Of a stretch of DNA of 64,000 bases, positions 2,234 to 59,962 are shown in pieces (within the stretch, counting starts at the first letter, position 1; every line of letters starts with the position of its first letter). The notes below the pieces were generated by a model. The model did no database searches. It saw nothing but the letters and a program-made list of their open reading frames with translations, and was not told the origin of the DNA. Both the position numbers and the translations under genes were made by a program. The stretch is taken from contig JASJEC010000019.1 of NCBI GenBank assembly GCA_030064845.1, forward strand, positions 9,537 to 73,536, in the 5' to 3' direction. Source of the DNA: Kiloniellales bacterium. GTDB taxonomy: Bacteria > Pseudomonadota > Alphaproteobacteria > Kiloniellales > JAKSDN01.

Positions 2234-3010
2234 ATGACGGAAGAAAGCCGATCCAGGATCCCAGCGGGCCTCAGGGTCCTGGTCACGGCCGGCGCGGCCG
2301 GCATCGGCCGGGCGATCGCCGCCCGCTTCGCGCGCGAGGGTGCCCAGGTCACGGTCTGCGACATCGACGAGGCGGCGCTCGAGAACTTCCGCCAGGCGCA
2401 TCACGACTGCAGCGCCTGGCCCTGCGACGTGGCCGACGAGGGCCAGGTCGCGGCACTCTTGGAGAGCCTCGACGGCCTCGACGTGCTGGTCAACAACGCG
2501 GGCATCGCCGGGCCGACCGCCGGCGTCGGCGAGCTCGATCCCGCCGACTGGCGGCGCACCGTCGAGGTCAACCTGACCGGGCACTTCTATTGCACCCACT
2601 ACGCCATGCCCCTGCTGCGCGTCTCCGAGGCCGCCTCGATCATCTGCCTCTCCTCGGTCGCCGGCCGGCTCGGCTTTCCCTACCGCACGCCCTACGCGGC
2701 AACCAAGTGGGGCGTGGTCGGACTGGTCAAGAGCCTGGCGGTGGAGCTCGGGCCCGAGGGCATCAGGGTCAACGCCATTCTGCCCGGCGTGGTCGAGGGG
2801 CCGCGCATCGAGCGGGTCTTCGCCGCGCGCGCCGAGACGCTCGGCCGGCCGGTCGAGGAGGTCAAGCAGGAGAACCTCGCCAAGGTCTCGCTGCGCTCGA
2901 TGGTCTCGGCCGAGGACATCGCCGACATGGCGCACTTCCTCTGCACGCCGGCGGGACGCAACATCTCCGGTCAGGCGCTCAGCGTCTGCGGCAACGTCGA
3001 GGCGCTTTAG
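2234..3010 (+). CDS. Short-chain dehydrogenase/reductase (SDR)
   Basis: 258 aa. N-terminal VLVTAGAAGIGRAIA Rossmann motif, NNAG, and YAATKWG (YxxxK). Confidence 0.85.
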   Translation: MTEESRSRIPAGLRVLVTAGAAGIGRAIAARFAREGAQVTVCDIDEAALENFRQAHHDCSAWPCDVADEGQVAALLESLDGLDVLVNNAGIAGPTAGVGELDPADWRRTVEVNLTGHFYCTHYAMPLLRVSEAASIICLSSVAGRLGFPYRTPYAATKWGVVGLVKSLAVELGPEGIRVNAILPGVVEGPRIERVFAARAETLGRPVEEVKQENLAKVSLRSMVSAEDIADMAHFLCTPAGRNISGQALSVCGNVEAL

Positions 3011-3042
3011 GCGCGTACGGCCGGATGTCGTGCGCCTTCTTT

Positions 3043-3134
3043 CTGTCATGCCCGGACTTGATCCGGGCATCCAGCAAAGCCGGCACGTGACCTGCGGTCG
3101 CCCTGGATGGCCGGATCAAGTCCGGCCATGACAG
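3043..3134. repeat. Intergenic palindromic repeat, family B (gtcatgcccggacttgatccgggcatcc type)
   Basis: ctgtcatgcccggacttgatccgggcatccag ... ctggatggccggatcaagtccggccatgacag. A second copy lies at 59868-59962. Confidence 0.8.
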
Positions 3135-3292
3135 AGACATGGAGGGGTCGGTTGGTGCCGGCCCCTCTTCGAAGAGGGGAGCGTCCGACATCGCCTTTGC
3201 CGAAGGGTGCCGGCCAAGCAGGCCGACCCTATCCCACTCGCGCGCCCCGGCATTACTATGCTGCCTGCAAATTTAGACCCAGGACTCCTCCC

Positions 3293-17423: not shown

Positions 17424-20400
17424 ATGATGCGTCCCGCGCCCGATCTCGACACCATTCGCACCGCCATGCGCGCGGATTACCTGCCCGACGAGGCCGCCGT
17501 GGTGCGTCGTCTGGCCGCCGAGAGCGGCCTCGGCGCCGGGGCCCGCGCCGCCATCGCGGCCAAGGCGGCGGAGCTGATCCGCCGGGTGCGCGAGACCACC
17601 AATCCGGGACTGATGGAGAGCTTCCTGGCCGAGTACGGCCTCTCCACCAAGGAGGGCGTGGCGCTGATGTGCCTCGCCGAGGCGCTGCTCAGGGTGCCCG
17701 ACGCGGAGACCATCGACGCGCTGATCGAGGACAAGATCGCGCCGTCCGACTGGGGCAAGCATCTCGGCCACTCCGCCTCGCCGCTGGTCAACGCCTCGAC
17801 CTGGGCGCTGATGCTGACCGGCAAGGTCCTGGCCGAGCCCGAGGGCCTGACGGCCGCGCTGCGCGGCGCCGTCAAGCGGCTCGGCGAGCCGGTGATCCGC
17901 ACCGCCGTCGGGCAGGCCATGCGCGAGCTGGGCCGCAACTTCGTGCTCGGCCGCACCATCGAGGAGGCGCAGGAGAACGCGGCGCCCTACGTGGCGAAGG
18001 GCTACACCTATTCCTACGACATGCTGGGCGAGGCGGCGCGGACCGAGGCCGACGCGCGGCACTACCACCTGGCCTATTCCGACGCGATCACCGCCCTGGC
18101 GGGGAGCTGTACCTCCGACGACATCCGCGAGAACCCGGGGATCTCGGTCAAGCTCTCGGCCCTGCACGCGCGCTACGAGTTCGGCCAGCGCGACCGCGTG
18201 ATGGCCGAGCTGACGGCGCGGACCCGCTCGCTGGCGCTGCTGGCCAAGTCGGCGAACATGGGCTTCAACATCGACGCCGAGGAGGCCGACCGGCTCGACC
18301 TCTCGCTCGACGTCATCGAGGCCGTGCTCTCGGACCCCTCGCTCAGCGGCTGGGACGGCTTCGGCGTGGTCGTGCAGGCCTATGGGCCCCGGGCCGGCCA
18401 CGTCATCGACTGGCTCTACGCTCTGGCGACCCGCCTCGACCGCAAGATCATGGTGCGCCTGGTGAAGGGCGCCTACTGGGACACCGAGATCAAGCGCGCG
18501 CAGGTGATGGGCCTGAAGGGCTTTCCGGTCTTCACCCGCAAGGTCTCGACCGACGTCAGCTACATCGCCAGCGCCGAGAAGCTGCTGGCCATGACCGACC
18601 GGATCTACCCGCAGTTCGCCACCCACAACGCCCATACCGTGAGCGCGGTGCTGGAGATGGCCGCCTCCAAGGTCAAGGGCAACAAGGCCGCCTTCGAGTT
18701 CCAGCGCCTGCACGGCATGGGCGAGACCCTGCATGCCGTCGTGCTCGAGGAGGAGAGCACCCGCTGCCGCATCTACGCCCCGGTCGGCGCCCACCGGGAC
18801 CTGCTGGCCTATCTGGTGCGGCGTCTCCTGGAGAACGGCGCCAACTCCTCCTTTGTCAACCAGATCGTCGACGAGAGCATCGCGCCGGAGGCGATCGCCC
18901 AGGATCCCTTCGACGCCGTGGCGGCCCTGGGGGACGGGATCGCCAATCCGGGCATCCGCCCGCCGGCCGCTCTCTTCGGCGCCGGCCGGGTCAACGCCAA
19001 GGGCTGGGACATCACCGACCCCGAGGAGGTCGCGGCGCTCGACGCCGCCCGCGCGCCCTTCCGCGACCACACCTGGCAGGCCGGGCCGATGATCGCCGGG
19101 CCGGTCGCCGGCGCGACCCCGCGCAATCTCGCGAACCCCGCCCAGCCCGCCGAGCTGGTCGGCCGGGTTACCGAGGCGAGCGCGGCGGATGTGGAGACCG
19201 CGCTTGCCGCCGCGCCGCAAGGCTTCGCCGACTGGTCTGCGCGCCCCGCCGGCGAGCGGGCCGCCGTGCTGCGCAAGGTCGCCGATCTCTACGAGGCCCA
19301 TGCGCCGGAGTTCTTCGCCCTGGCCGCCCGCGAGGCGGGCAAGTCGCTGCTGGACGGCGTGGCCGAAGTGCGCGAGGCGGTCGACTTCCTGCGCTTCTAC
19401 GCGGCTGAAGCCGAGCGGCTCGAGGGCCAGGACGGGCCGCGCGGCCCGATCGTCTGCATCAGCCCGTGGAACTTTCCCCTGGCGATCTTCACCGGCCAGA
19501 TCTCGGCGGCGCTCGCGGCCGGCAACGCGGTGATCGCCAAGCCGGCCGAGCAGACACCGTTGATCGCGGCCCGCGCGGTGGGGTTGATGCACGAAGCCGG
19601 CGTGCCCAAGGCGGCGATCCAGCTTCTGCCGGGTGACGGCCCCGCCGTCGGCGCGCCGCTGACCTCCGATCCGCGGGTGGCCGGGGTCTGCTTCACCGGC
19701 TCGACCGAGGTGGCGCAGATCATCAACCGCTCCATGGCGGAAAATCTCGATCCCCGCGCGCCGCTGATCGCCGAGACCGGCGGCCTCAACGCGATGATCG
19801 TCGACTCGACCGCTCTGCCGGAGCAGGCGGTGCGCGACATCATCGCCTCCAGCTTCCAGAGCGCGGGACAGCGCTGCTCGGCGCTGCGCATGCTCTATGT
19901 CCAGGAGGACGTCGCCGACCGGGTGCTGACCATGCTCTACGGCGCTATGGACGAGCTCCGCCTCGGCGACCCCTGGGAGCTCTCCACCGACGTCGGCCCG
20001 GTGATCGACGCCGAAGCCCGCGCCGGCATCGAGAGGCACATCGCGGTGCAGGCGGCCGAAGGCCGGGTGGCGAAGCAGCTGAAGGTCCCGGCCGGGGGTC
20101 TCTTCGTGCCGCCCACCGTGATCCGGCTGAACGGAATCGAGGAGCTGGAGCAGGAGATCTTCGGCCCCGTCCTGCACGTCGCCACCTTCGACGCCGAGGA
20201 GGTCGACGCCGTGATCGACGCCGTCAATGCGCGCGGATACGGCCTGACCTTCGGGCTCCATACCCGGATCGACGACCGCGTGCAGCACATCGTCGAGCGC
20301 GTGCGCTGCGGCAACATCTACGTCAACCGCAACCAAATCGGCGCCGTGGTCGGCTCGCAGCCCTTCGGCGGCGAGGGGCTCTCGGGCACCGGACCGAAGG

Positions 20401-20981
20401 CGGGCGGGCCGAGCTACGTGCGGCGCTTCCTCGCGGTCCCCGAGGCTGATGGTGCCGAGGCGTCAGGCGCGGCCGTGGGCGCGGCGGCGGCCCAGGCCGC
20501 CCTCGACGGGTTGACGGTGCCGGACTGGACCGCGGAGCCGGAATCCCTGCCGGGCCCGACCGGCGAGTCGAACCGCCTGGCCGAGCATCCGCGCGGCAAG
20601 GTGCTCTGCCTCGGGCCCACGGCGGCGGCGGCCCGGACCCAGGCCGAGGCGGCCCTGAAGGCGGGCAACGCCGCCCTGATGGTGGCGCCCGGCGCGTCGG
20701 CCTCGGAACTCGAGGCGGACGGCGCGGCGGCGGCCCTGGACGGGGTGCTCGAGCCCGCCGCGCTGGCCGGGCTGGCCGGGTGCGACGCCGTGGCCAGCCA
20801 GGCCGGCGTCGCCACGCTCCGCGCGCTGCGCCGGGCGCTGGCGGCGCGCAAGGGCCCGCTGGTTCCGCTCGTCACCGAGCCCGGCCGGCCCGAGTGGTTC
20901 AGCCTGGAGCGGCACGTCTGCGTCGACACCACGGCGGCGGGCGGCAACGCCTCGCTGCTGGCCGAGGCGGGCGCGGCGTAG
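17424..20981 (+). CDS. putA: Bifunctional proline dehydrogenase / L-glutamate-gamma-semialdehyde dehydrogenase PutA
   Basis: 1185 aa from ATG 17424. PRODH barrel (VRLVKGAYWDTE, FATHNAH), ALDH domain (ISPWNFPLAI, ETGGLNAMIVD, GQRCSALR) and a C-terminal domain. Confidence 0.92.
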   Translation: MMRPAPDLDTIRTAMRADYLPDEAAVVRRLAAESGLGAGARAAIAAKAAELIRRVRETTNPGLMESFLAEYGLSTKEGVALMCLAEALLRVPDAETIDALIEDKIAPSDWGKHLGHSASPLVNASTWALMLTGKVLAEPEGLTAALRGAVKRLGEPVIRTAVGQAMRELGRNFVLGRTIEEAQENAAPYVAKGYTYSYDMLGEAARTEADARHYHLAYSDAITALAGSCTSDDIRENPGISVKLSALHARYEFGQRDRVMAELTARTRSLALLAKSANMGFNIDAEEADRLDLSLDVIEAVLSDPSLSGWDGFGVVVQAYGPRAGHVIDWLYALATRLDRKIMVRLVKGAYWDTEIKRAQVMGLKGFPVFTRKVSTDVSYIASAEKLLAMTDRIYPQFATHNAHTVSAVLEMAASKVKGNKAAFEFQRLHGMGETLHAVVLEEESTRCRIYAPVGAHRDLLAYLVRRLLENGANSSFVNQIVDESIAPEAIAQDPFDAVAALGDGIANPGIRPPAALFGAGRVNAKGWDITDPEEVAALDAARAPFRDHTWQAGPMIAGPVAGATPRNLANPAQPAELVGRVTEASAADVETALAAAPQGFADWSARPAGERAAVLRKVADLYEAHAPEFFALAAREAGKSLLDGVAEVREAVDFLRFYAAEAERLEGQDGPRGPIVCISPWNFPLAIFTGQISAALAAGNAVIAKPAEQTPLIAARAVGLMHEAGVPKAAIQLLPGDGPAVGAPLTSDPRVAGVCFTGSTEVAQIINRSMAENLDPRAPLIAETGGLNAMIVDSTALPEQAVRDIIASSFQSAGQRCSALRMLYVQEDVADRVLTMLYGAMDELRLGDPWELSTDVGPVIDAEARAGIERHIAVQAAEGRVAKQLKVPAGGLFVPPTVIRLNGIEELEQEIFGPVLHVATFDAEEVDAVIDAVNARGYGLTFGLHTRIDDRVQHIVERVRCGNIYVNRNQIGAVVGSQPFGGEGLSGTGPKAGGPSYVRRFLAVPEADGAEASGAAVGAAAAQAALDGLTVPDWTAEPESLPGPTGESNRLAEHPRGKVLCLGPTAAAARTQAEAALKAGNAALMVAPGASASELEADGAAAALDGVLEPAALAGLAGCDAVASQAGVATLRALRRALAARKGPLVPLVTEPGRPEWFSLERHVCVDTTAAGGNASLLAEAGAA

Positions 20982-21015
20982 AGCTGGAGCGTCAGGTCGG
21001 GTGGGGCCGAAGCGC

Positions 21016-21903
21016 TCACTCGGCGACAGGGCCGTCGTAGTAGGGCAGCTTGTCGATCCGCGGTTCGTAGCGGCCGGCCGCCTGTAGTTCGGCGATGTGC
21101 CGGGTGATGTCCTCCAGGGTGGCGAACCAAACCTCTTTCGTCCGCAGGGTCTGCTCGATCCAGGAGTCGACCAGGCGCCAGCGTGCGAGGCGGCCGGTCA
21201 GGAAGGGGTGGAGGATCAGCATGAAGAAGCCGCCGAACTCGTACTGGGCCTCGAACTCCTCCCAGAAGGCCTGAAGGCCCCTGCTCGGCGCGCGCACCGG
21301 CATCAGGTAGCCAATCTCCTCGTAGTGGGCGAAGGGCGGCCAGTCGTCCTCGCCCCAATGCACGGGAATCTCCCAGAGCTGGCCTCGATCGGTCTTGAGG
21401 AGATAGGGGACGTCGTCCGCCATCATGGAGGATTCATAGGCGAAGTCGTGCTCGATCAGCAGGTCGACGACCTCGGGCGTTATGTCGTAGACCGGCGCCC
21501 GGTAACCGCGCGGCAGGCTTCCGCAGATGTTCTTGTGGGCCTGGAGCGCGCGCTCGAACCACTCGCGCTGCTTTTCGGCGCCCATGCTGGTTGGGTTCTC
21601 GTGAAGATAGCCGTGATGGCCGATCTCGTGGCCGTCCTTCAGAATCGCTTCCACGGTCTCGGGGTATTGCTCCAGGCACCAGCCCGGAATGAAGAAGGAC
21701 TGCTTGAGGCCGTACTTGCGGTAGGTCTCGAGAATGCGCGGGACGCCGACGGTCGGACCGTACTTTCCCATGGAAATCGGATAGAGGCGTCGATGGGAAT
21801 CCTCGGGCTTGGCGATGTGAATGAGGCTGTCCGCGTCCATGTCGAAGGTGATGGCGCAGGCGCAGCGCGCGCCGTTCGGCCAGGGGATTGGGTTGGCGAT
21901 CAT
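21016..21903 (-). CDS. Polysaccharide deacetylase (NodB-fold) family protein, PuuE-like
   Basis: 295 aa. ...CAITFDMDADS..., GHEIGHHGYLHE; ATGA overlap with the ABC ATPase. Confidence 0.75.
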   Translation of the reverse strand: MIANPIPWPNGARCACAITFDMDADSLIHIAKPEDSHRRLYPISMGKYGPTVGVPRILETYRKYGLKQSFFIPGWCLEQYPETVEAILKDGHEIGHHGYLHENPTSMGAEKQREWFERALQAHKNICGSLPRGYRAPVYDITPEVVDLLIEHDFAYESSMMADDVPYLLKTDRGQLWEIPVHWGEDDWPPFAHYEEIGYLMPVRAPSRGLQAFWEEFEAQYEFGGFFMLILHPFLTGRLARWRLVDSWIEQTLRTKEVWFATLEDITRHIAELQAAGRYEPRIDKLPYYDGPVAE

Positions 21904-23009
21904 GACGTGCCCTTTCGCTTCGACTCGCCGGTCAGAAGGTGAGTGCTGGCGGCTGGCCAGGAGAGATAGAGCTCGCGCGCCGACTTGAGGTCGATGTTGG
22001 CCAGGTCGCGTTCCTGAAGTTGCGTCTTGAACTCGGTGCCATCCGCGCTTTCCAGGAACAGGGTGACGACGGACCCGATGAATTCCTCCGAAATCAGAGT
22101 GACCGGGACGCAGTTGCCGTCTGCCGGCCGATCCTGGGACAGGTGCACGAGATCGGCGGCAATGACGAAACTTATCTCGTCTCCCAGCGCAATGGTGTTT
22201 TCGACGCCGACCTGAACCTTGAGGTCGCCCGCCGGCGTTGCCACCACGGCTTCGCTCGCTTCGAGCCGCTCGATCTTGCCGGTGAGGATGTTGTTGCTTC
22301 CAACGAACTCGGCCACGAAACGGTTGGCAGGCGCCCGGTAGATGTCCCGCGGCGTGCCGATCTGGGCGATCTCGCCGTCGCTCATGATGACGACGCGGTC
22401 GGCCATGGCGAAGGCCTCGGATTGGGAATGGGTCACATAGACGAAGGTGATGCCGAGCTCGCGCTGCAGGCGGGTCAGGACCCCCTGCATGCGCACCACC
22501 AGGTGAGCGTCAAGGGCCGAGAGGGGCTCGTCGAGAAGAAGGATCCTAGGCTCGGTCACGAGGGCGCGGGCCAGGGCGACGCGCTGGCGCTGGCCGCCTG
22601 AAAGCTGCAGGACGTCGCGTTCAGCGAACTCGCCGATGCCGAGACGTTCCAGCCAGTCCTGGGCCTTCTTGCGCCGCGGCTCCGCCGCCATGCCGCGCAT
22701 CTTCAGGCCGAACTCGACGTTCTCCCGGGCATTGAGAAAGGGAAAGAGCGCGAGGCTCTGCCAGACCATGGGCGTGTCGCGCTCGTGGGGCTTGACGGAA
22801 AGAAGCGATTGGCCGTCCAGGCGGATATCGCCCTTCGAGGGCTGCTCGAGCCCGGCCAGCATGCGCAGCGTCGTGGTCTTGCCGCAGCCCGAAGGGCCCA
22901 TCAGGGCTAGAAACTCGCCACTCTGGATTTCCAGGTTCAGGCGTTTGACCGCCACGAAGTTGTCGAAACGCTTAACGACATCCTCAAATACGACAAGCGC
23001 GCGGCTCAT
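21900..23009 (-). CDS. ABC transporter ATP-binding protein (PotA/spermidine-putrescine type with C-terminal TOBE-like domain)
   Basis: GPSGCGKTT (Walker A), LSGGQRQRVALARAL, LLLDEPLSALD. Confidence 0.9.
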   Translation of the reverse strand: MSRALVVFEDVVKRFDNFVAVKRLNLEIQSGEFLALMGPSGCGKTTTLRMLAGLEQPSKGDIRLDGQSLLSVKPHERDTPMVWQSLALFPFLNARENVEFGLKMRGMAAEPRRKKAQDWLERLGIGEFAERDVLQLSGGQRQRVALARALVTEPRILLLDEPLSALDAHLVVRMQGVLTRLQRELGITFVYVTHSQSEAFAMADRVVIMSDGEIAQIGTPRDIYRAPANRFVAEFVGSNNILTGKIERLEASEAVVATPAGDLKVQVGVENTIALGDEISFVIAADLVHLSQDRPADGNCVPVTLISEEFIGSVVTLFLESADGTEFKTQLQERDLANIDLKSARELYLSWPAASTHLLTGESKRKGTS

Positions 23010-23314
23010 CTAGTACCCACTTTCAGGATTGAGTGCATCGTCTGATTGCCGAGGCGCCCGTCCGGCTAGGGGGGCGTAGGCCCGGCGCTGCGCGCGGCGC
23101 GAAAGCGATGCCGAAGCATCGGTGAGCGCCGCTGACGACGCCGGGCGGGCGCCTCGGCAACTTTCCGGGCGCGTTATCAAGACTTTCGGCCCCGTTGAGA
23201 CCAATGGGGGTCGCGCGGCCCTTTTGATGACCTGCATCACGGCGGACCACGCTCCTAACCGAAAGTCTTGATAACTCGTCATACGAAACACTCAATCCTG
23301 AAAGTGGGTACTAG
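23010..23314. mobile_element. MITE-like non-coding insertion, 305 bp including flanking CTAG. Perfect 26-bp terminal inverted repeats and two long internal hairpins.
   Basis: ctagtacccactttcaggattgagtg (23010-23035) is the exact reverse complement of 23289-23314. Internal stems: 23046-23066/23140-23160 (21 bp, one G-U) and 23173-23189/23259-23275 (17/17). The element sits between the permease stop TAG and the ATPase ATG. Confidence 0.75.
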
Positions 23315-24108
23315 GCTCCCTGCCGGCCTTCCCGGGTCATGATCAGGATCTGAGCCATCACCACCAGGGTGATCGAGGTGATGAAGACCAGGGTGCCGAT
23401 CGCATTGACCTGTGGATCGATGTTACCGGTGACGATCTCCAGAATGATCACCGGCACGGTCTTGTTGAGACCCGACACGAACCAGGCGACGGCGAACTCG
23501 TCGAAGGAGACCGCCGCGGTCAGGCAGAGCGCAGAGGCGATGGCCGGCCGGGTGAAGGGTATCACGACCTGGCGCATCGCCCGCCACTCGCTGGCGCCCA
23601 GGTTCCAGGCGGCCGCCTCGAGGTTGCGGTCCATCTGCTGCAGGCGCAGGCGGATGATCGCCATGGCGAAGGGCGCGCAGAGCACGGTGTGGGCGATCAC
23701 GATGGACCAGATCTGGCCCGAGGCCCCGATCCGCGAGAACCAGGCGAGCATGGCCAGCGCCAGGATGATCAGGGGTATGGTCGGCGGCAGCAGGGCGAGC
23801 GCCAGATAGGCGCCCTTGAAGCGGAAGCCGTAGCGGTAGTCGGTGTAGGCGGTGCAGAAGCCGATGAGCGTCGCGAGGCAAGCGGTACAAAGCGAGACGA
23901 TGGCGCTGGTGCGCACTGCGTCCCAGACGTCGGGATCGGTGAAGATCGCCTCGTACCACTGGAGCGAAAAGCTGCCCAGGGGAATGGTCGGGAAGCGCTG
24001 TGAATTGAAGGAGAAGATCACGCTGGCGATGATCGGCGCGAAGACGAAGACGAAGATCAGCACCAGGTAGGCGCGGAGGAACCAGCGGATTCCGCGATCC
24101 AACGTCAT
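23311..24108 (-). CDS. ABC transporter permease (PotC-like)
   Basis: 265 aa from the Met at 24108 (ATGA overlap with the upstream permease). Multi-TM protein with an EAA-like loop ...NLGASEWRAMRQVVIPFTRPAI. Confidence 0.85.
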   Translation of the reverse strand: MTLDRGIRWFLRAYLVLIFVFVFAPIIASVIFSFNSQRFPTIPLGSFSLQWYEAIFTDPDVWDAVRTSAIVSLCTACLATLIGFCTAYTDYRYGFRFKGAYLALALLPPTIPLIILALAMLAWFSRIGASGQIWSIVIAHTVLCAPFAMAIIRLRLQQMDRNLEAAAWNLGASEWRAMRQVVIPFTRPAIASALCLTAAVSFDEFAVAWFVSGLNKTVPVIILEIVTGNIDPQVNAIGTLVFITSITLVVMAQILIMTREGRQGA

Positions 24109-24980
24109 CTGACCGGCTTCCGGTAGGCCAGGGCGACGGCGGTGAAGGCGACGGTGAGCAGGGTGATCATCATCATGATGGCGACCACGGCGGCGCGTGG
24201 CCACTGCTGGCCGGATTTGGTCGTATCGATGATCAGGATCGGCAGTGTCGGGGGTTTCGAGCCGCCGAGGTAGTAGGGACTGACGAAGTCGCCGAAGGAA
24301 AGAATGAAGCAGAAGACCGCACCGATGATCAGACCCACCTTGGCGAGCGGCACGATCACCGTAAAAACCGTGCGCAGCCGCCCGCAGCCCAGATTGTGCG
24401 CCGCTTCGATCAGGCTGCGGTCGACGTTGGCCAGCGAGAGGGTCTGCAGGATGACGACGAGCGGCAGGGTCAGCGTCATGTAGCCGACGATGGTGCCGAA
24501 CTTGGTGTTCAGCATGGTGTAGGGGCCGAGCCCGATGTAGCCCAGGATCGCGTTGATCACGCCGGACTCGGCGAGGATCACGTACCAGGAAAAGGTCCGC
24601 ACCAGATAGCTGGTGAAGAAGGGCACGATCAGGCAGAAGATCGCCCAGCGCCGGACCGCGGGCGAGACCTTGAAGGACAGGGCATAGGCGGCCGGAAAGG
24701 CGAGGACCGTGACGACGAGGGTCGACAGCATCGCGAGGCCGAAGGTCAGCAGGTAGCTGTCCCAGAAGTAGTTCCGGCCGAGCATCTTGGTCCAGTTGAC
24801 GAACTCGAAGGCCTCGACCATGCGGTAGTTCTTCACCAGGAAGAACGACATGGCGATCATGAAGAGCAATGGACCGACGAAGAAGGCCAACTGCCAGACG
24901 ATGATCGGCAGGCGCCAGGTCAGGGCATAGCGGTCGAACCGGCGGACAAACTTCCGAGATTCTTGCGGCGCGTCAGCCAT
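24105..24980 (-). CDS. ABC transporter permease (PotB-like)
   Basis: 291 aa, six hydrophobic segments, EAAHNLGCGRLRTVFTVIVPLAK motif. Confidence 0.85.
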   Translation of the reverse strand: MADAPQESRKFVRRFDRYALTWRLPIIVWQLAFFVGPLLFMIAMSFFLVKNYRMVEAFEFVNWTKMLGRNYFWDSYLLTFGLAMLSTLVVTVLAFPAAYALSFKVSPAVRRWAIFCLIVPFFTSYLVRTFSWYVILAESGVINAILGYIGLGPYTMLNTKFGTIVGYMTLTLPLVVILQTLSLANVDRSLIEAAHNLGCGRLRTVFTVIVPLAKVGLIIGAVFCFILSFGDFVSPYYLGGSKPPTLPILIIDTTKSGQQWPRAAVVAIMMMITLLTVAFTAVALAYRKPVR

Positions 24981-25095
24981 TCCACTTCCTTGATCGCGCC
25001 TCGCGGCAACACGTGGTCATCCCCCTCGAGGACAAGCCAAAGAACGGCCGGCGCGATCCGCTTCTGGGGTTGCGCCGGCCGTAACCGGGTCTGAT

Positions 25096-26247
25096 CTAGG
25101 CGTTCTTGTACTCAGACCAGAAGTCGTTCCAGTCTTCCAGGCTCTGCTGCACCGGAATGTTGCGGTAGTGGATGCGGCCTTCCTTGATCAGGGTGATCGG
25201 ATTGTTGGGCGCGCCCTCGATCTGCCCGGTGCGTTTGGCCTCAGCGAGGTTGGCCTCCTGCAGGGCTTTCTGGCCCTTTCTTGTGATGCAGAAACCCGGG
25301 TAGGCCACCATCTGGGCCGAGCGCACCTGGCCACGGGGGCTCAGCATGTACTGGATGAACTTCTTGCAGACCTCCGCCTTCTCCGAACCCTTGCCGATGG
25401 AATAGGACTCGGTCCATTGGATGCCGCCTTCCTTCGGCACGACGGAGGCGACCGGCGCGCCGTCCTTCTCGAGCACGCCGGTGATCCAGTCGCCGATGCC
25501 GCACATGGCCAGCATCTCGCCGTTCTTCAGCGAGTTGAAGGTGCCGCCATAGTCGAAATAGCCGCCGACCTGGGGCCGCAGGCTCAGGGTCGTCTCCTGC
25601 ACCTTGGACCAGGCCGCGTCGTCCAGATCCCACAGCTTGGCGCCGTTGCCGTTGTAGAGGCTCATCATGCCGAGCGATGGAAGGTGCCAGTCGAAGTGGC
25701 CGACCTTGCCCTTCAGTTCCGGCTTCCAGAAGCAGGCGTAGCTCTCCGCTTCCTCGGCGGTGACGGCGTTCTTGTTGTAGGAGACGCCGAGGTGGCCGAA
25801 GCGCACCATGACGGAGAAGAGCTTGTCGCCGTCCCAGTGCCCGGGGAAGCGCTTGAAGTCTTCGTAGAGCATGTCGTCGAAATCGTAGTCGCCCGGGTCC
25901 ATCTGCTCGATGTAGCCGGCGGCATTGAGCTGCTGTACGAATTCCGCGTCCGACAGGATGATGTCATAGGTGCCCGGCGGTGACTGCGCGATCAAGGCCA
26001 GCATGTTGTCGCCGCCGGCATAGTACTTCGGCTTGAACTTGACGTTGTTCTCGGCCTCGAACTCCTCGACCATGTCCGGCTCGCCGTGGCCATACCAGGC
26101 CAGCATGTTGATCTCGGTCGCCTGCGCTTTCGCGCGCTTGACGAAGGGCATGGCCAGACCGGCGGCGGCGCCGACCGCGACTCCGCCGTACTTCAGCACT
26201 TCCCGCCTGGTCGGCTGCGCCAGTTTCGAGCTCTTTGGATTTCTCAT
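25096..26247 (-). CDS. ABC transporter periplasmic substrate-binding protein (PotD/PotF-like) with a Tat-type signal
   Basis: 383 aa. N-terminal PTRREVLKYGGVAVGAAAGLAMPFVKRAKA; first gene of the operon. Confidence 0.85.
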   Translation of the reverse strand: MRNPKSSKLAQPTRREVLKYGGVAVGAAAGLAMPFVKRAKAQATEINMLAWYGHGEPDMVEEFEAENNVKFKPKYYAGGDNMLALIAQSPPGTYDIILSDAEFVQQLNAAGYIEQMDPGDYDFDDMLYEDFKRFPGHWDGDKLFSVMVRFGHLGVSYNKNAVTAEEAESYACFWKPELKGKVGHFDWHLPSLGMMSLYNGNGAKLWDLDDAAWSKVQETTLSLRPQVGGYFDYGGTFNSLKNGEMLAMCGIGDWITGVLEKDGAPVASVVPKEGGIQWTESYSIGKGSEKAEVCKKFIQYMLSPRGQVRSAQMVAYPGFCITRKGQKALQEANLAEAKRTGQIEGAPNNPITLIKEGRIHYRNIPVQQSLEDWNDFWSEYKNA

Positions 26248-26390
26248 TGTACCTGTCTCCCCGTCGTTCTCCTTGGGGTGCCTTTCCGCTCGGCCGCCCG
26301 GGCCGATCTTAACGACGGTGCTGACCGGGTAGAAGACTTAAAGCGATCCGCGGGTCGCGCCGCCCGTTCAAGGCCGCCGCCGTCGACAAC

Positions 26391-27200
26391 ATGAATTTTT
26401 GCTCGATCGGGAATCCGACTATTCTTGTGCCTGTCATGGACCGTGCAAGCTTTCATCGACACTTCGATACCCCCGGGCCGGTGGTCTTCCCGGTCATCCA
26501 TGTGCTGGACACGGCGCAGACGGAGAGAAATCTCCGCATCGTCGCGGAGGCGGGCGCGGCCGGGGCCTTCCTGATCAACCACGACTTTCCGGTCGAACCC
26601 TTCCTGCCGATCCTTCGCCGGGTGAGAGCAGACTTTCCGACACTCTGGATGGGGGTGAATTTCCTCGCCGTGACCGGGCGCGACGCCTTTCCGATTCTCG
26701 GTGCTCTTCAGAGAGAGGGTGCGCGCTTCGATGCCTACTGGGCCGACGATGCCTGCATCGACGAGCGGGGCTTCCATTCCGATCAGCCAGAGGCGGAAGC
26801 GATCTCGGCGGCCCGCGAGAGTTCCGGTTGGGAGGGTCTATATTTCGGCGGAACAGCCTTCAAGAAGCAGCGGCCGGTTGCTCCCAAGGATTACGTCAAG
26901 GCGGCGAGGCGGGCGGCGGAATGGATGGACGTCGTGACCACCTCCGGCATGGCAACCGGAGTGGAAGCCGACCTGGACAAGATCGCGGCCTTTCGGTCCG
27001 GACTCGGGCCGCACGCTCTGGCCCTGGCCTCGGGTGTAACGCCGGAGAACGCCCAGTACTATTGCCTCGCGGTCGACTGTTTCCTGGTGGCAACGGGAAT
27101 CAACCACGAAGATGATTTCTACAACATCGATCCGGTGCGTCTGGCGGATCTGATGACTCTCTGCCGTACGCTTGGCAATACTGATTGGGGAGGCCTATGA
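26391..27200 (+). CDS. BtpA/SgcQ-like TIM-barrel protein (tentative)
   Basis: 269 aa. Alternating beta/alpha pattern (PVIHV..., GAFLINHDF...), C-terminal LALASGVTPENAQYY...DCFLVATGI phosphate-binding-like motif. The start is uncertain (26391 or 26436). Confidence 0.5.
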   Translation: MNFCSIGNPTILVPVMDRASFHRHFDTPGPVVFPVIHVLDTAQTERNLRIVAEAGAAGAFLINHDFPVEPFLPILRRVRADFPTLWMGVNFLAVTGRDAFPILGALQREGARFDAYWADDACIDERGFHSDQPEAEAISAARESSGWEGLYFGGTAFKKQRPVAPKDYVKAARRAAEWMDVVTTSGMATGVEADLDKIAAFRSGLGPHALALASGVTPENAQYYCLAVDCFLVATGINHEDDFYNIDPVRLADLMTLCRTLGNTDWGGL

Positions 27201-27832
27201 CCAAAGCGAGTCTCGAACGCGGCCCGAGAGACGACCGCTGGTATCTGCGGATCATGTCGCCCAACACCAAGGGGCCGAAGTTCGCCTGGCTCGATCCGAC
27301 CTCGATCTACATCAACGGCGCGGCCTTCCACGATCTGCTGGACGATCTTCAAGCCGATCTGCAGGGCGCGGAGGTCGATGTCGTGGCCGGCCTGGATGCC
27401 ATGGGCTTCGTGCTTGCCGCAGCCCTGGCGACCCGCCTGGGCGTGGGCATGCTGCCGATCCGCAAGGCCGGCAAGCTCTGCGTCGATACCGACAAGGCGA
27501 CCTTCACCAACTATTCGGGCCGGACCCAGGACATGGAGATGCGCCTGCCGGCCTTCGCGCCTGGCACGAAGGTCCTCCTGGTCGACCAGTGGATCGAAAC
27601 CGGCGGGACCATGCAGGGCGCGATTCAGTTGGTCACGGCGCAAGGAGGAATCGTCGCCGGCCTGGTCGCGATCGCCATCGAGGAGAACGAGACGACCAAT
27701 GCCTTTCGCGAGGACTATCTCTGTGTGTCGGCGGTGGTGCCTGGCTCATTCTGGCAGGTGGAGTGCAACGGCCAAACCCTGAGCTCCTTCGGCAGCTACA
27801 AACCGGAGATGGCTTTTCCGGCCCGCCGTTGA
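27197..27832 (+). CDS. Type I phosphoribosyltransferase, adenine-PRT-like with an N-terminal extension
   Basis: ATGA overlap with the previous gene. Alignable by eye to E. coli Apt (VVAGLDAMGFVLAAALATRLGVGMLPIRKAGKL...). The PRPP loop is VLLVDQWIETGGT. Confidence 0.75.
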   Translation: MTKASLERGPRDDRWYLRIMSPNTKGPKFAWLDPTSIYINGAAFHDLLDDLQADLQGAEVDVVAGLDAMGFVLAAALATRLGVGMLPIRKAGKLCVDTDKATFTNYSGRTQDMEMRLPAFAPGTKVLLVDQWIETGGTMQGAIQLVTAQGGIVAGLVAIAIEENETTNAFREDYLCVSAVVPGSFWQVECNGQTLSSFGSYKPEMAFPARR

Positions 27833-27856
27833 GCCTCCCGGCTGGCGTCTCTACCC

Positions 27857-28921
27857 GTGCCGCGGACGGCGTTCCGTGGTAGCTTGCGGCTTGGATGGAA
27901 CCTCCGAGCGAACCCCGTGTCTTACAGTCTGGATCGCAGAATTTCCGTCGCGCCCATGATGGACTGGACGGACCGCCACGACCGCTTCTTCCTGCGGCTG
28001 ATCTCGCGGCGCGCCCTGCTCTATACCGAGATGATCCCGGTCGGCGCGATCCTGCACGGCGACCGGGAGCGGTTCCTCGGCTTCGACCCGGCCGAGCGGC
28101 CCCTGGCGCTGCAGGTCGGCGGCGCGGCGCCGGCGGACCTCGCGGTCGCCGCCGAGCAGGCCGAGGCCTATGGTTACGACGAGGTTAACCTCAACGTCGG
28201 CTGCCCGAGCGACCGGGTCCAGAACGCCCGCTTCGGCGCCTGCCTCATGGCCGAGCCGGCGCTCGTCGCGCGCTGCGTCGCGGCCATGGGCCGCGCCTCG
28301 AGCCTGCCGGTCACGGTGAAGACCCGGATCGGCATCGACGACCGGGACTCCTACGACGAGCTCAAGGCCTTCGTCGCGGCGGTCGCCGAGGCCGGCTGCC
28401 GCAGCTTCACGATCCACGCCCGCAAGGCCTGGCTCTCCGGCCTCAGCCCGAAGCAGAACCGCGAGATCCCTCCGCTGGACTACGAGCGAGTCTATCGCCT
28501 GAAGGCGGACTTCCCGGCGCTGGAGATCGTGATCAATGGCGGCATCCTCGACTTGGAGGCCGCCGAGGCCCACCTCGCCCGGGGGGTCGACGGCGTGATG
28601 ATCGGCCGCGCGGCCTACCAGAACCCCTACGTCCTGGCCGAGGTCGACCGGCGCTTTTTTGGCGATTCTGCGGCGCCGCCGAGCCGGGCGGCGGTGGTCC
28701 GCTCCCTGGTGTCCTACGCCGAGGCGGCGGGGCGGCGGGGCGTGCCGGTCAAGTCGATCACCAGGCATATCCTGGGACTGTTCAACGGCCTGCCCGGGGC
28801 CCGCCAGTGGCGCCGCCACCTGAGCGAGGCGGCCCACAAGCCTGGCGCCGGCCCCGAGGTGATGCTGGAGGCGCTCGCCCAGGTCGAGGCACGGCTACAG
28901 GCCCGCGGTCTCGCCGCGTAG
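27857..28921 (+). CDS. dusA: tRNA-dihydrouridine(20/20a) synthase DusA
   Basis: RISVAPMMDWTDRHDRFFLRLISRRALLYTEM..., NLNVGCPSDRV, TVKTRIG. The start is uncertain (27857 or GTG 27917). Confidence 0.88.
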   Translation: MPRTAFRGSLRLGWNLRANPVSYSLDRRISVAPMMDWTDRHDRFFLRLISRRALLYTEMIPVGAILHGDRERFLGFDPAERPLALQVGGAAPADLAVAAEQAEAYGYDEVNLNVGCPSDRVQNARFGACLMAEPALVARCVAAMGRASSLPVTVKTRIGIDDRDSYDELKAFVAAVAEAGCRSFTIHARKAWLSGLSPKQNREIPPLDYERVYRLKADFPALEIVINGGILDLEAAEAHLARGVDGVMIGRAAYQNPYVLAEVDRRFFGDSAAPPSRAAVVRSLVSYAEAAGRRGVPVKSITRHILGLFNGLPGARQWRRHLSEAAHKPGAGPEVMLEALAQVEARLQARGLAA

Positions 28922-29081
28922 GAGGCCCGACGCCCCCACCCCGAGGGCGCTTGGTTCGCCGTCCAGCCGGGGCTTTTCAAGGCCGGCGGCTCACGGCATC
29001 TTTATCTCCCGTGCGGTGAACGGCGGGGCGGCCGGCCCCACCTAGACGATCCTGAGCATAGGCTTCGAAGGAGGAGGCACC

Positions 29082-29840
29082 ATGCGGACGGCGGAGGCGA
29101 TCGAGCGGGTCGCGATCCAGTCGGACGTCGACCTGGCAGGCCTGCCGGGCGAGCAGCTCGAGGCCATGGCCGAGGCCGGGCGCGAACTGGTCGAGATCCA
29201 CCGAATCCTGGCCAAGACCGGCGACAACGTGGTCGGCGAGCTACTGCGCGACCAGGGGACCTTCTATGAATGGGACCATTATCCTAAAGGCGACGTCTAT
29301 GACAACGAGACCCACGGCCAGTACTACTACCATGCGCACCCTTTCGCCGACCGCTTCGAGAAGGAACACGGCCACTTCCACACCTTCATCCGGCCCAAGG
29401 GCATGCCCGAGGGGATCGAGCCGGCCAAGGTGCCCGAGTACAAGAAGCCCAAGGACCCGAACGACGCGCTCTGTCACCTGATCGCCGTTTCGATGGACAA
29501 GATGGGCTTCCCGTTCCGGCTGTTCACGGTCAATCGCTGGGTGACCGGCGAGGTCTGGTACGAGGCCGAGGACGTCGCCCGCCTGCTCGACCACTTCGAG
29601 ATCGACCACGCCCGCCCGTCCTGGCCGGTCAACCGCTGGATCACCGCGGTTCTCCGGCTCATGAAGCCGCAGATCGTCGAGCTGGTCCAGCGGCGCGACC
29701 GGACCGTGGCCGACTGGCGCGCGCGGAACCCCGGCGCCAATGTCTTCGAGGACCGGGACCTGGAGGTGACCTCCTACCTCGATTTCTCGATCGAGGAGCA
29801 GATCCGGGCGGTCGGCCAGGCGATGATCGGCCGCGGCTGA
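29082..29840 (+). CDS. Conserved hypothetical protein with a His-rich putative metal site
   Basis: 252 aa with a strong SD (gaaggaggaggcaccATG). Segment WDHYPKGDVYDNETHGQYYYHAHPFADRFEKEHGHFHTF. Confidence 0.7.
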   Translation: MRTAEAIERVAIQSDVDLAGLPGEQLEAMAEAGRELVEIHRILAKTGDNVVGELLRDQGTFYEWDHYPKGDVYDNETHGQYYYHAHPFADRFEKEHGHFHTFIRPKGMPEGIEPAKVPEYKKPKDPNDALCHLIAVSMDKMGFPFRLFTVNRWVTGEVWYEAEDVARLLDHFEIDHARPSWPVNRWITAVLRLMKPQIVELVQRRDRTVADWRARNPGANVFEDRDLEVTSYLDFSIEEQIRAVGQAMIGRG

Positions 29841-30059
29841 AGGTTCTTCCGGGGCCTGGCCGGGCCCCCTCCCAACGGCCGGAAGCGCCCTAATCTCCCT
29901 GCGCTAGACCCTTTCGAGGGGCCCGGAGGGCACGAATGTCAGGGTGCGTTAAACAAGGCTTAGCCACTTAACGTTACACTAACCGCGTTCAACCGCATTG
30001 GTCCTGGGGCGGGCGGTTCGGGCCGCCTCGACGCCCCGCCGGCCTGACGCAAGGACGAC

Positions 30060-31175
30060 ATGAGCAAGACACTTTCCAAGGCCGACGTCGAGCGGCTGAT
30101 CAACGATCCGACGGCCGATGCGCGCGCCGAGACGGCGGCCAAGGTGGCGCACGAGTTCGGCGCCAAGAGCTTGTCCAAGAACGAGCGCAAGCTGGCCGAG
30201 GAGATCTTCCGGGTCCTGGTCAAGGACGCCGAGGTCCGGGTGCGCGAGGCGCTCTCTGTCGGGCTCAAGCACTCGGACGACCTGCCGCACGACGTGGCGC
30301 TGACCCTGGCCAAGGACGTCGAGCAGGTCAGCCTGCCGATCCTGCGCTTCTCGGAGGTGCTGCGTGACGAGGACCTCATCGAGATCATCCGCGAAGCGGC
30401 GCCGGCCAAGCAGCAGACCATCGCCCAGCGCGACCGCGTCGCGCCCGGTGTCGCCGACGCGCTGATCGACAGCGAGAACGACGTCGCCGTGGCCCACCTG
30501 GTCGCCAACCAGGGGGCGGAGCTCGACGACGAGGCGATCGGCCGTGTGCTTGACCGCTACGAGAGCAGCGAGGCGGTCGCCGACTCGCTGGTCCGCCGGC
30601 CGAACCTCTCGGCGGCGATCTCCGAGCGCCTGGTGTCGGCGCTCAGCAGCCGTCTGGAGTCCTTCCTGGTCGAGCAGCACGACCTGGCGGCCGATACCGC
30701 CAGCAGCCTGATCCTTCAGGTGCGCGAGCGCGCCACGGTCAGTCTCTTGAGCGACGGCTCGAGCGACGAGGAGCTCGAGCGCCTGGTCGAGCAGCTCCAT
30801 GTCAACGGCCGGCTGACCCCGACGCTGGTGCTGCGCGCGCTCTGCATGGGCGACATCGCCTTCTTCGAGGTCGCGCTGGCTCGCCTGGCCGGCGTACCGG
30901 TCCAGAACGCCCGGATCCTGATCCACGACAAGGGCACCCTGGGCCTGGAATCGATCTACCTGCGCGCCGGCCTGCCCGAGCGGCTCTTCGCCGCGGTGCG
31001 CGCCGGCATCGAGGTGGTCGAGGAGACCGACTACGACGGTGGCGAGAACGACCGCAACCGCTATATCGAGCGGATGCTGGAGCGCATCCTGACCCAGTGC
31101 GAGGACCCGAGCGAGCGCCTGTCGGATGACGACATCGAGTTCCTCATGTCCAAGCTGCAACAGCTCGCCGCCTGA
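30060..31175 (+). CDS. DUF2336-domain protein
   Basis: 371 aa of HEAT-like helical repeats (VRVREALSVGLKHSDDLPHDVALTLAKD...), as in alphaproteobacterial DUF2336 proteins. Confidence 0.7.
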   Translation: MSKTLSKADVERLINDPTADARAETAAKVAHEFGAKSLSKNERKLAEEIFRVLVKDAEVRVREALSVGLKHSDDLPHDVALTLAKDVEQVSLPILRFSEVLRDEDLIEIIREAAPAKQQTIAQRDRVAPGVADALIDSENDVAVAHLVANQGAELDDEAIGRVLDRYESSEAVADSLVRRPNLSAAISERLVSALSSRLESFLVEQHDLAADTASSLILQVRERATVSLLSDGSSDEELERLVEQLHVNGRLTPTLVLRALCMGDIAFFEVALARLAGVPVQNARILIHDKGTLGLESIYLRAGLPERLFAAVRAGIEVVEETDYDGGENDRNRYIERMLERILTQCEDPSERLSDDDIEFLMSKLQQLAA

Positions 31176-31228
31176 CCTCCTGGCTGATTTCGCCACCGGA
31201 TCAAGCAGGCTTCTGAAAACCTCTCAGT

Positions 31229-31323
31229 CCTTGATCACCGTCATCCTTCGACAAGCTCAGGATGAGGGTATCTGCTCGTAAATGGATCGCCCTCACCCTG
31301 AGCTTGTCGAAGGGTGACGGTGC
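31229..31323. repeat. Intergenic palindromic repeat, family A
   Basis: ccttgatcaccgtcatccttcgacaagctcaggatgaggg ... ccctcaccctgagcttgtcgaagggtgacggtg. Confidence 0.8.
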
Positions 31324-59867: not shown

Positions 59868-59962
59868 CTCGTCATGGCCGGACTTGATCCGGCCATCCAG
59901 GAAGACCGAGGCCGTCGTGCCCCTGGCCCTGGATGCCCGGATCAAGTCCGGGCATGACGATC
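59868..59962. repeat. Intergenic palindromic repeat, family B
   Basis: ctcgtcatggccggacttgatccggccatccag...ctggatgcccggatcaagtccgggcatgacgatc. Confidence 0.8.

What the first reader, a model, noticed from the sequence alone, without database searches (positions are those of the whole stretch)
23010..23314. 305-bp perfectly TIR-bounded, multi-hairpin element inserted exactly between a stop and a start codon of an ABC importer operon
Seen in sequence:
- 23010-23035 (ctagtacccactttcaggattgagtg) is the exact reverse complement of 23289-23314 (26/26).
- Both ends begin and end with CTAG.
- The right CTAG supplies the permease stop codon (TAG, complement of 23311-23313). The left CTAG abuts the ATPase ATG (complement of 23007-23009).
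- Removing the element and one CTAG restores ...GGA GCC TAG ATG AGC..., a stop immediately followed by a start.
- Inside are two further long stems, 23046-23066/23140-23160 (21 bp, one G-U) and 23173-23189/23259-23275 (17/17), plus a gatgc-cgaa-gcatc hairpin. The transcript could therefore fold as a three-way junction rather than the single hairpin of a typical MITE.
- No credible ORF is present.

Established knowledge: 4-bp CTAG target duplications are typical of IS5-group elements and derived MITEs.

Inference: this is a non-autonomous mobile element, possibly two nested ones. It is co-transcribed within the operon and separates the ATPase from its formerly adjacent upstream gene. It could be an RNase III or processing site, an internal attenuator, or an exapted structured RNA.
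Basis: partly seen in the sequence, partly recalled or inferred. Interest (0 to 1): 0.6.

Follow-up and report, generated by a model that had tools for sequence, protein, structure and literature searches.

The report
New TA-targeting MITE inside transporter operon
The 305-bp segment is one copy of a previously undescribed small non-coding jumping element (a MITE) of uncultured marine Kiloniellales bacteria; it lands on TA in rare YTAR sites, which here are mostly stop codons, so it sits neatly between genes, and all readable copies point the same way as the neighbouring genes.

Summary
Window 23010-23314 has 26/26 perfect terminal inverted repeats (36 nt at 92%) and two internal long hairpins, and it lies between the permease stop and the ATPase start.

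The mobile-element reading is supported. I found 8-10 insertion sites in Kiloniellales MAGs and metagenomes. At least three copies are in the window's own lineage. Three sites have empty counterparts.

- The duplicated target is TA inside YTAR. This is the IS630/Tc1-mariner pattern, not a 4-bp CTAG duplication of IS5 type.
- The element is one unit, not two nested ones. All copies share the same two-hairpin layout.

No parent transposase, Rfam family, plasmid match or paper was found.

Stem pairing is kept by changes on both sides of 10 pairs. Both strands fold equally well, so this does not show an RNA function.

Two points are unexpected. All 7-8 readable sites carry the element in the same orientation as the flanking genes. 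Only that strand has a reading frame open from one repeat to the other.

Any effect on expression (translational re-coupling or RNase III processing) is inference.

Verdict: a new family of a known kind, of moderate interest.

The parts
23013..23311 (-). Element proper under the TA-duplication model: 5'-GTACCCAC...GTGGGTAC-3', 299 bp. The sense orientation is the window - strand, the same as the operon.
   Evidence: empty versus filled liv-like site.
23011..23012 (.). Left copy of the duplicated target TA. The flanking base C23010 belongs to the host.
23312..23313 (.). Right copy of the duplicated target TA. With element base C23311 it forms the permease stop TAG on the - strand.
23013..23045 (.). 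Terminal inverted repeat, left arm. It is the 3' arm in the sense RNA. It carries the outward-facing SD-like AAAGUGGGU 5 nt before the ATPase AUG.
   Evidence: anti-SD duplex -10.1 kcal/mol.
23279..23311 (.). Terminal inverted repeat, right arm. It is the 5' arm in the sense RNA. Counting the flanking TA, it has stop codons in all three frames within 36 nt.
23046..23160 (.). Internal hairpin module A: 77% GC, 21-bp stem, with the inner hairpin gatgc-cgaa-gcatc at 23107-23120. It includes a segment of about 21 nt that is absent from most copies.
23170..23278 (.). Internal hairpin module B: 58% GC, 20-bp stem. It includes a 15-nt mini-hairpin shared only with the UPF0262 copy.
23010..23291 (-). 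Through-ORF of the sense strand (GTG start, 93 codons). It ends at the terminal TAG directly before the ATPase ATG. It is open in all copies but not conserved as a protein.
23311..24204 (-). ABC permease (BPD_transp_1). Its stop codon overlaps the element end.
21900..23009 (-). ABC ATPase (ABC_tran, PotA-like). Its start codon abuts the element.
24105..26247 (-). Upstream operon genes: a second permease (24105-24980) and the solute-binding protein (25096-26247).
   Evidence: Synteny with L034/L036/L037.

Best explanation
Window 23013-23311 is one copy of a non-autonomous DNA transposon (MITE) family of uncultured Kiloniellales.

Shown:
- It has about 33-nt terminal inverted repeats.
- It is flanked by TA in every copy, within a YTAR context.
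- It has no conserved coding capacity.
- It occurs at many unrelated sites.
- It is absent from the matching sites of relatives.

Inferred:
- It is moved in trans by a cut-and-paste DDE transposase that inserts at TA and duplicates it, as the IS630/Tc1-mariner group does.
- In a 67.6% GC genome, TA and especially CTAG are rare and concentrated in TAG/TAA stop codons. Target choice plus selection against gene disruption therefore puts copies on stop codons and in stop/start junctions of operons.
- The insertion is tolerated because each end supplies stop codons in all three frames and an outward SD-like sequence. The long terminal stem also brings the upstream stop and the downstream start back together in the transcript.
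For: Copies:
- One full copy is in a Kiloniellales MAG (L001).
- Four full and five partial copies are in metagenome contigs.
- Further copies are in the window's own MAG lineage, at UPF0262->LMWPc and inside a glyoxalase gene.
- Contigs of six sister assemblies break inside the element, as expected for a repeat.

Empty sites:
- Orthologous ABC operons at 82-86% ATPase identity have an ATGA permease/ATPase overlap and no element.
- The glyoxalase gene is intact in L046/L047.
- Eight contigs read gagggtcTGAgcgATG where three read gagggtcTA[GTACCC...GGGTAC]TAagcgATG, and all encode the identical downstream protein.

TA rather than CTAG duplication:
- The liv-like and glyoxalase sites read TTAG...CTAG, and L011 ends in CTAA.

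Target rarity:
- CTAG occurs 37 times against 192 expected in the window, and 8 of those lie at putative stops.

Conservation:
- Mean pairwise difference is 0.067 in the TIRs, 0.081 in paired interior columns and 0.181 in unpaired interior columns.
- Ten pairs show changes on both sides, reached by 0 of 500 shuffles.

Other:
- No Rfam family matches.
- No promoter or terminator match is present.
Against: - No autonomous element with these TIRs was found in the window, in 73 loci, in PLSDB or in the exact-match scans. Assignment to IS630/Tc1-mariner rests only on the TA/YTAR signature.
- The sampled empty liv-like alleles read TGA, not TAA. A TA-bearing pre-insertion allele is inferred, one transition away.
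- At the glyoxalase site the flanks are 1 nt short of the in-frame ortholog.
- Copies within one lineage differ by about 20%. Recent activity is shown only by the presence/absence polymorphism.
- A uniform orientation at 7-8 of 7-8 sites is not expected for a passively tolerated element with symmetric ends.
Confidence: 0.85

Rival explanations
1. The element is retained at operon junctions because its transcript is functional in one orientation. The terminal stem loops out about 300 nt. A ribosome stopping at the upstream UAG, at the base of the 5' arm, melts the stem base and exposes the SD-like sequence and the AUG. Alternatively, ribosomes restart at GUG24/AUG33 and translate the through-ORF to the terminal UAG next to the AUG. 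Either route re-couples translation of the downstream gene. This is compatible with MITE origin; it is a rival only to 'passive passenger'.
For: - All 7-8 sites whose neighbours could be read carry the sense orientation. The two-sided binomial P is about 0.008-0.016.
- Four sites have a start codon 0-8 nt after the element: the window, the liv-like site, UPF0262/LMWPc and L007.
- Only the sense strand has a frame open from TIR to TIR, and this holds in all 7 copies despite 1-nt indels.
- The TIR end pairs with the anti-SD at -10.1 kcal/mol, against -7.3 to -12.3 for the native sites of the orthologs.
Against: - There are no expression data.
- ORF retention is only marginal under a permutation of substitutions (P about 0.05).
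- Sense and antisense RNAs fold equally well (-156.6 versus -167.9 kcal/mol consensus).
- Some copies are not at junctions: L002 lies 148 nt after def, and one copy disrupts a gene.
- The sample is small and the sites come from related genomes.
Confidence: 0.2
2. It is an IS5-group-derived MITE that duplicates the 4-bp target CTAG.
For: - Four of six fully flanked sites read CTAG on both sides.
- The IS5 group prefers YTAR-type targets (my own knowledge, not checked here).
- An empty site cannot by itself distinguish a 2-bp from a 4-bp duplication.
Against: - Two independent sites read TTAG...CTAG.
- The base next to the element is G/C at every end, apart from one mutated end in L021. The outer base varies: C or T on the left, G or A on the right. 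The inner base therefore behaves as part of the element and the outer base as flank.
Confidence: 0.1
3. The long perfect terminal duplex is an RNase III substrate that cuts the operon mRNA between permease and ATPase, as in Neisseria Correia elements, and so changes the relative stability of the two halves.
For: - The perfect RNA duplex is 26-33 bp.
- There is a precedent for MITE-borne RNase III sites (PMC10969869; PMC2229807).
- There is no internal promoter or terminator, so the element is presumably co-transcribed.
Against: - No transcript-end data exist.
- It does not explain the orientation bias, because the terminal stem is symmetric.
Confidence: 0.25
4. It is a vertically inherited, single-copy regulatory RNA of this operon, or two nested elements, or a small protein gene.
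For: - The fold is very stable.
- Stems covary.
- ORFs are open.
Against: - It is multi-copy at unrelated loci and absent from orthologous operons.
- All copies share the same two-module layout and neither module occurs alone.
- ORFs are frameshifted between copies and have no homologue.
Confidence: 0.02

Closest known systems
IS630/Tc1-mariner-derived bacterial MITEs (e.g. RUP of Streptococcus pneumoniae, attributed to IS630-Spn1)
   Same: - TA on both sides and a preference for TA inside CTAG-like sites.
- TIRs of 24-30 nt, which suffice in cis.
- No transposase gene.
- The transcript folds into a long stem (PMC2170065; PMC2229807).
   Different: - The TIR sequence matches nothing found here, and no parent IS was identified.
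- At about 270-305 bp it is much larger than RUP (107 bp).
- The interior holds two separate conserved hairpins, giving a three-way junction rather than one hairpin.
Correia/NEMIS elements of Neisseria
   Same: - About 24-26-nt TIRs and TA at the termini.
- Frequently co-transcribed with neighbouring genes.
- The terminal duplex is a candidate RNase III site (PMC2229807; PMC10969869).
   Different: - Unrelated sequence and host.
- No conserved IHF site. The near-match TATCAAGACTTTC is not kept in other copies.
- Twice the size.
Chunjie MITE of Geobacter uraniireducens
   Same: [quoted passage not shown]
- A very stable predicted RNA fold (PMC3184786; PMC10969869).
   Different: Chunjie has 21-bp TIRs, 9-bp direct repeats and is A+T rich. 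The present family has TA flanks and is 62% GC.
ERIC elements in Yersinia
   Same: They are co-transcribed with flanking genes, and their effect on mRNA stability depends on orientation (PMC2229807, citing De Gregorio 2005). This is the nearest precedent for an orientation effect.
   Different: No sequence similarity, a different size and a different host. Here the orientation bias is a distribution pattern, not a measured effect.

Membership tests
MITE (non-autonomous TIR transposon) | Terminal inverted repeats | tested here: met
   26/26 perfect, 36 nt at 92%. The TIRs are conserved in all copies.
MITE (non-autonomous TIR transposon) | Small size and no transposase gene | tested here: met
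   269-305 bp. ORFs are frameshifted between copies and no homologous protein exists.
MITE (non-autonomous TIR transposon) | Multiple copies at unrelated sites | tested here: met
   8-10 distinct flanking contexts. At least 3 are in the window's own lineage.
MITE (non-autonomous TIR transposon) | Target-site duplication and empty sites | tested here: met
   TA on both sides in all copies. Empty versus filled alleles have identical flanks. There are two further empty sites.
MITE (non-autonomous TIR transposon) | Autonomous partner with matching TIRs | tested here: not met
   None was found in the window, the loci, PLSDB or the exact-match scans. Whole genomes could not be searched.
IS630/Tc1-mariner-mobilised element | Insertion at TA with TA duplication | tested here: met
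   TA is the only perfect direct repeat at the TTAG...CTAG sites. The empty-site length fits. A mutated 4-bp duplication is not strictly excluded.
IS630/Tc1-mariner-mobilised element | TIRs bound by an IS630-family transposase | not testable with these tools
   No transposase candidate was recovered.
IS5-group MITE with 4-bp CTAG duplication | Identical 4-bp repeat on both sides | tested here: not met
   TTAG versus CTAG at the liv-like and glyoxalase sites. A CTAA end occurs in L011.
Any Rfam RNA family | Covariance-model match | tested here: not met
   The only hit was a chance-level MtlS match: 19.8 bits against a gathering score of 80, E = 0.92.
Intrinsic terminator / attenuator | GC-rich hairpin followed by a U run | tested here: not met
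   No terminator-like site lies in 23010-23314. The 3' arm is followed by AUGAGCC.

The most novel reading that the evidence does not exclude
The family is 'operon-compatible by design'. The symmetric ends supply stops in all frames and an outward Shine-Dalgarno-like sequence. The terminal stem re-juxtaposes the upstream stop and the downstream start. Only the sense strand keeps a TIR-to-TIR open frame, so ribosomes can be relayed across 300 nt. Together these would explain why surviving copies all point with transcription and sit in stop/start junctions. This would be a MITE that preserves translational coupling.
Probability: 0.2. Interest if true: 0.6.

Novelty: new member of a known kind. 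Interest (0 to 1): 0.35.

Why it matters
- It adds a well-delimited MITE family, with clean empty and filled alleles, to a poorly studied order known mainly from metagenomes.
- It explains a striking feature, an insertion exactly between a stop and a start. The cause is a simple interaction of TA/YTAR target choice with the rarity of such sites in a GC-rich genome.
- It breaks contigs and produced at least one chimeric MAG contig, which is of practical use to people assembling these genomes.
- If the orientation bias and the through-ORF hold up in a whole-genome census, the family would be a tractable case of how a mobile element can sit inside an operon without uncoupling the genes.

Tried and rejected
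- Rfam scan at E <= 1: only a chance MtlS hit.
- BLAST of the element and of the TIR against 72,556 plasmids: nothing, apart from one chance 28-nt hit at E = 8.
- Full-text search for the TIR sequence and for assembly names: nothing relevant.
- Search of 5.8 billion proteins with the element's ORF peptides, to find copies called as genes: nothing.
- The 18 other metagenome or viral hits to the 18-mer (L003, L005, L008-10, L012, L013, L015-20, L022, L025-31) are chance or coding matches with no further similarity.
- Strand asymmetry of folding: none, the antisense folds slightly better.
- Promoter or terminator in the element: none.
- 'No TSD, TA belongs to the element': rejected by the liv-like empty site, because the predicted length would be 2 nt too short.
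- Nested-element idea: rejected.
- The 15-nt and roughly 21-nt extra segments of the window copy are small hairpins that come and go. L064 and L004 differ in one of them at the same insertion site.
- IHF-like motif in module B: not conserved.
- The 18-nt match at window 45777-45794 lies in GC-rich sequence and was taken as chance.
It was reached through cluster ids instead.

Full report
**1. The observation**

The region reads as described.
- 23010-23035 is the exact reverse complement of 23289-23314. There are two matches in the window and none in 100 shuffles. The inverted repeat extends to 36 nt at 92%.
- The two inner stems and the small gatgc-cgaa-gcatc hairpin are present.
- As RNA the 305 nt fold to -194.5 kcal/mol. 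Shuffles give -115.6 +/- 5.5, so z = -14.3.
- On the - strand, an ABC permease ORF (23311..24204, BPD_transp_1) stops in the right CTAG. An ABC ATPase ORF (21900..23009) starts at the base adjoining the left CTAG.
- Upstream lie a second permease and a solute-binding protein. Downstream lies a polysaccharide deacetylase.
- The element has no promoter-like or terminator-like site and no Rfam match.
- It is single-copy within the 64-kb window.

**2. It is a repeated, mobile element**

Exact-match scans with part of the terminal repeat returned the following.
- One Kiloniellales MAG, with a complete 270-bp copy.
- 28 metagenome stretches.
  - Ten of these carry true copies: four full (L002, L004, L021, L006) and five cut by contig ends (L007, L011, L014, L023, L024).
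  - L004 and L021 are one locus. L024 is the window's own locus.
  - The other 18 hits are chance matches.

The window belongs to an uncultured Kiloniellales lineage (names). That lineage holds at least three copies.
- The ATPase junction copy is complete in L042. Contigs L033, L040, L041, L043 and L044 end inside it.
- A 284-bp copy lies between a UPF0262 gene and a low-molecular-weight phosphatase gene (L055, L056, L061).
- A 270-bp copy interrupts a glyoxalase/VOC gene (L006, L048-L053).

Contig JARPNO010002295.1 (L032/L054) joins the UPF0262 copy to the ATPase copy. It is best read as an assembly chimera across the repeat.

**3. Empty sites**

(a) ABC operon. Orthologous operons at 82-86% ATPase identity keep the gene order. 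Their permease and ATPase overlap by ATGA and they have no element.

(b) Glyoxalase gene. It is intact in L046 and L047 (...RGPENQPYGLRDF...). In the window's lineage it is split after RG and before DQPYGLRDF.

(c) Liv-like permease pair. Eight contigs (L065-L072) read gagggtcTGAgcgATG. L064, L073 and L004 read gagggtcTA[GTACCC...GGGTAC]TAagcgATG. All encode the identical downstream protein P0256. This shows a presence/absence polymorphism among very close relatives.

**4. What is duplicated**
- Every end reads YTAG-TACCC. The base next to TACCC is constant apart from one mutated end in L021. The outer base varies: C or T on one side, G or A on the other.
- Two independent sites read TTAG...CTAG.
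- The empty liv-like site has exactly the length expected if one TA (or one 4-mer) is present once. It is 2 nt longer than expected if the TAs belonged to the element.
- TA is therefore the only perfect direct repeat. The element proper is GTACCCAC...GTGGGTAC, and the target is YTAR.
- This is the signature of IS630/Tc1-mariner elements: TA duplication, with IS630 preferring TA within CTAG (PMC2170065). It is not an IS5-type 4-bp duplication.

Two caveats apply.
- The sampled empty alleles read TGA, so a TAA allele one transition away is inferred.
- At the glyoxalase site the flanks are 1 nt short of the in-frame ortholog. This is unexplained.

No autonomous partner was found.

**5. Why it sits exactly between stop and start**
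- The window is 67.6% GC.
- CTAG occurs 37 times against 192 expected from composition. At least 8 of these lie at putative stop codons.
- A TA/YTAR-seeking element therefore often hits stop codons, and insertions within genes are mostly removed by selection.
- The flanking TA forms part of a stop codon of a neighbouring gene in the window, L001 (both convergent genes), UPF0262, the liv-like site and L011.
- A start codon follows the element by 0, 3, 8 and 2 nt in the window, the liv-like site, UPF0262/LMWPc and L007.

**6. Architecture and conservation**
- All copies share one layout: TIR, hairpin module B, linker, hairpin module A, TIR in the sense orientation. It is one element, not two nested ones.
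- Length differences come from two small hairpins of 15 and about 21 nt. One of them differs between L004 and L064 at the same insertion site.
- Mean pairwise difference is 0.067 in the TIRs, 0.081 in paired interior columns and 0.181 in unpaired interior columns.
- Ten of 96 consensus pairs have changes on both sides. None of 500 shuffles reaches this, and slid controls give 0-2. Three of the ten are in the TIRs of the UPF0262 copy.
- Both strands fold about equally well: consensus -156.6 kcal/mol sense and -167.9 kcal/mol antisense.
- TIR arms must match one transposase, and hairpin-templated repair can perfect palindromes at the DNA level (my own knowledge, not tested). This covariation therefore does not demonstrate an RNA function.

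**7. Two unexpected features**

First, orientation.
- At every site where neighbouring genes could be assigned, the element has the same orientation relative to transcription.
- These sites are:
  - the window;
  - UPF0262->LMWPc;
  - the liv-like pair;
  - def->SRPBCC;
  - the glyoxalase gene;
  - AA-permease (L014);
  - FGGY (L007, possibly the other half of L014);
  - the CCG-domain gene (L011).
- L001 lies between convergent genes and L023 is unreadable.
- Seven or eight of seven or eight gives a two-sided P of about 0.016-0.008. The sample is small and the genomes are related.

Second, the reading frame.
- On the sense strand a frame starting at GUG24/AUG33, just inside the 5' repeat, stays open to the stop codons of the 3' repeat. 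This holds in all seven copies despite 1-nt indels.
- Most antisense frames carry internal stops.
- A permutation of the observed substitutions gives P of about 0.05 for this retention, so it is only suggestive.
- The peptides are not conserved.

**8. Mechanistic reading (inference)**
- Each end supplies stops in all three frames within 36 nt.
- Each end also has an outward AAAGUGGGU that pairs with the anti-SD at -10.1 kcal/mol. The native sites of the orthologs give -7.3 to -12.3.
- In the transcript, the 26-33-bp terminal stem places the upstream UAG and the downstream AUG at its base.
- A terminating ribosome should open roughly the first ten pairs (general knowledge of ribosome footprints). 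That would expose the SD-like sequence and the AUG.
- Alternatively, translation of the through-ORF ends at the UAG that abuts the AUG.
- Either route could preserve coupling. The through-ORF route would also explain the orientation bias.
- RNase III cleavage of the stem, as in Correia elements (PMC2229807; PMC10969869), is an equally plausible fate.
- None of this is tested here.

**9. Comparison and verdict**
- The element meets the definition of a MITE except for a known autonomous partner.
- Its closest mechanistic relatives are TA-duplicating IS630-type MITEs such as RUP.
- Correia, Chunjie (a MITE inside an operon; PMC3184786) and ERIC (orientation-dependent effect; PMC2229807) are functional analogues, not relatives.
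- It is a new family of a known kind.
The IS5/CTAG-duplication and nesting details are not.

Noticed in passing
window 3035-3142 and 59869-59960: Two copies of another palindromic repeat of about 90-110 bp. The arms are like TCATGCCCGGACTTGATCCGGGCATCCAGG, 33-40 nt at 88-94% complementary. This is a second small-repeat family in the genome.
   Followed up: no
window 31236-31322; also L048 11628-11703: A third palindromic repeat family. The arms are CACCGTCATCCTTCGACAAGCTCAGGATGAGGG / CCCTCACCCTGAGCTTGTCGAAGGGTGACGGTG, 33 nt at 94%. A related copy lies in a sister contig.
   Followed up: partly
window 20096-31247 versus L042: Identity to a sister MAG contig changes at the element. It is 99.81% on the permease side (15 mismatches in 7933 nt) and 97.39% on the ATPase side (76 in 2914). 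The repeat marks either a recombination boundary or a strain switch in assembly.
   Followed up: partly
L032/L054 (GCA_029979825.1 contig JARPNO010002295.1), locus 2696-3000: The contig joins hisG-hisD-UPF0262 to the ATPase gene through a hybrid element. Sister assemblies have UPF0262-element-LMWPc instead. This is probably a misassembly across the repeat.
   Followed up: yes
L006 3294-3563; L048 10275-10543: One copy interrupts a glyoxalase/VOC gene. Its first TIR stop is mutated (TGA to TGG), so gene callers annotate a 176-aa fusion protein with an 85-residue element-encoded tail (P0176). The flanks are 1 nt short of the in-frame ortholog.
   Followed up: partly
L048 10654-11734 versus L053 889-922: About 1.08 kb carrying a 202-codon ORF with no Pfam family lies between the glyoxalase and SDR genes in most contigs but not in L053 or L046. 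It is an unexplained indel. No TIRs were seen.
   Followed up: partly
whole window: CTAG is five-fold under-represented (37 observed, 192 expected). TA is two-fold under-represented (841 against 1683).
   Followed up: yes
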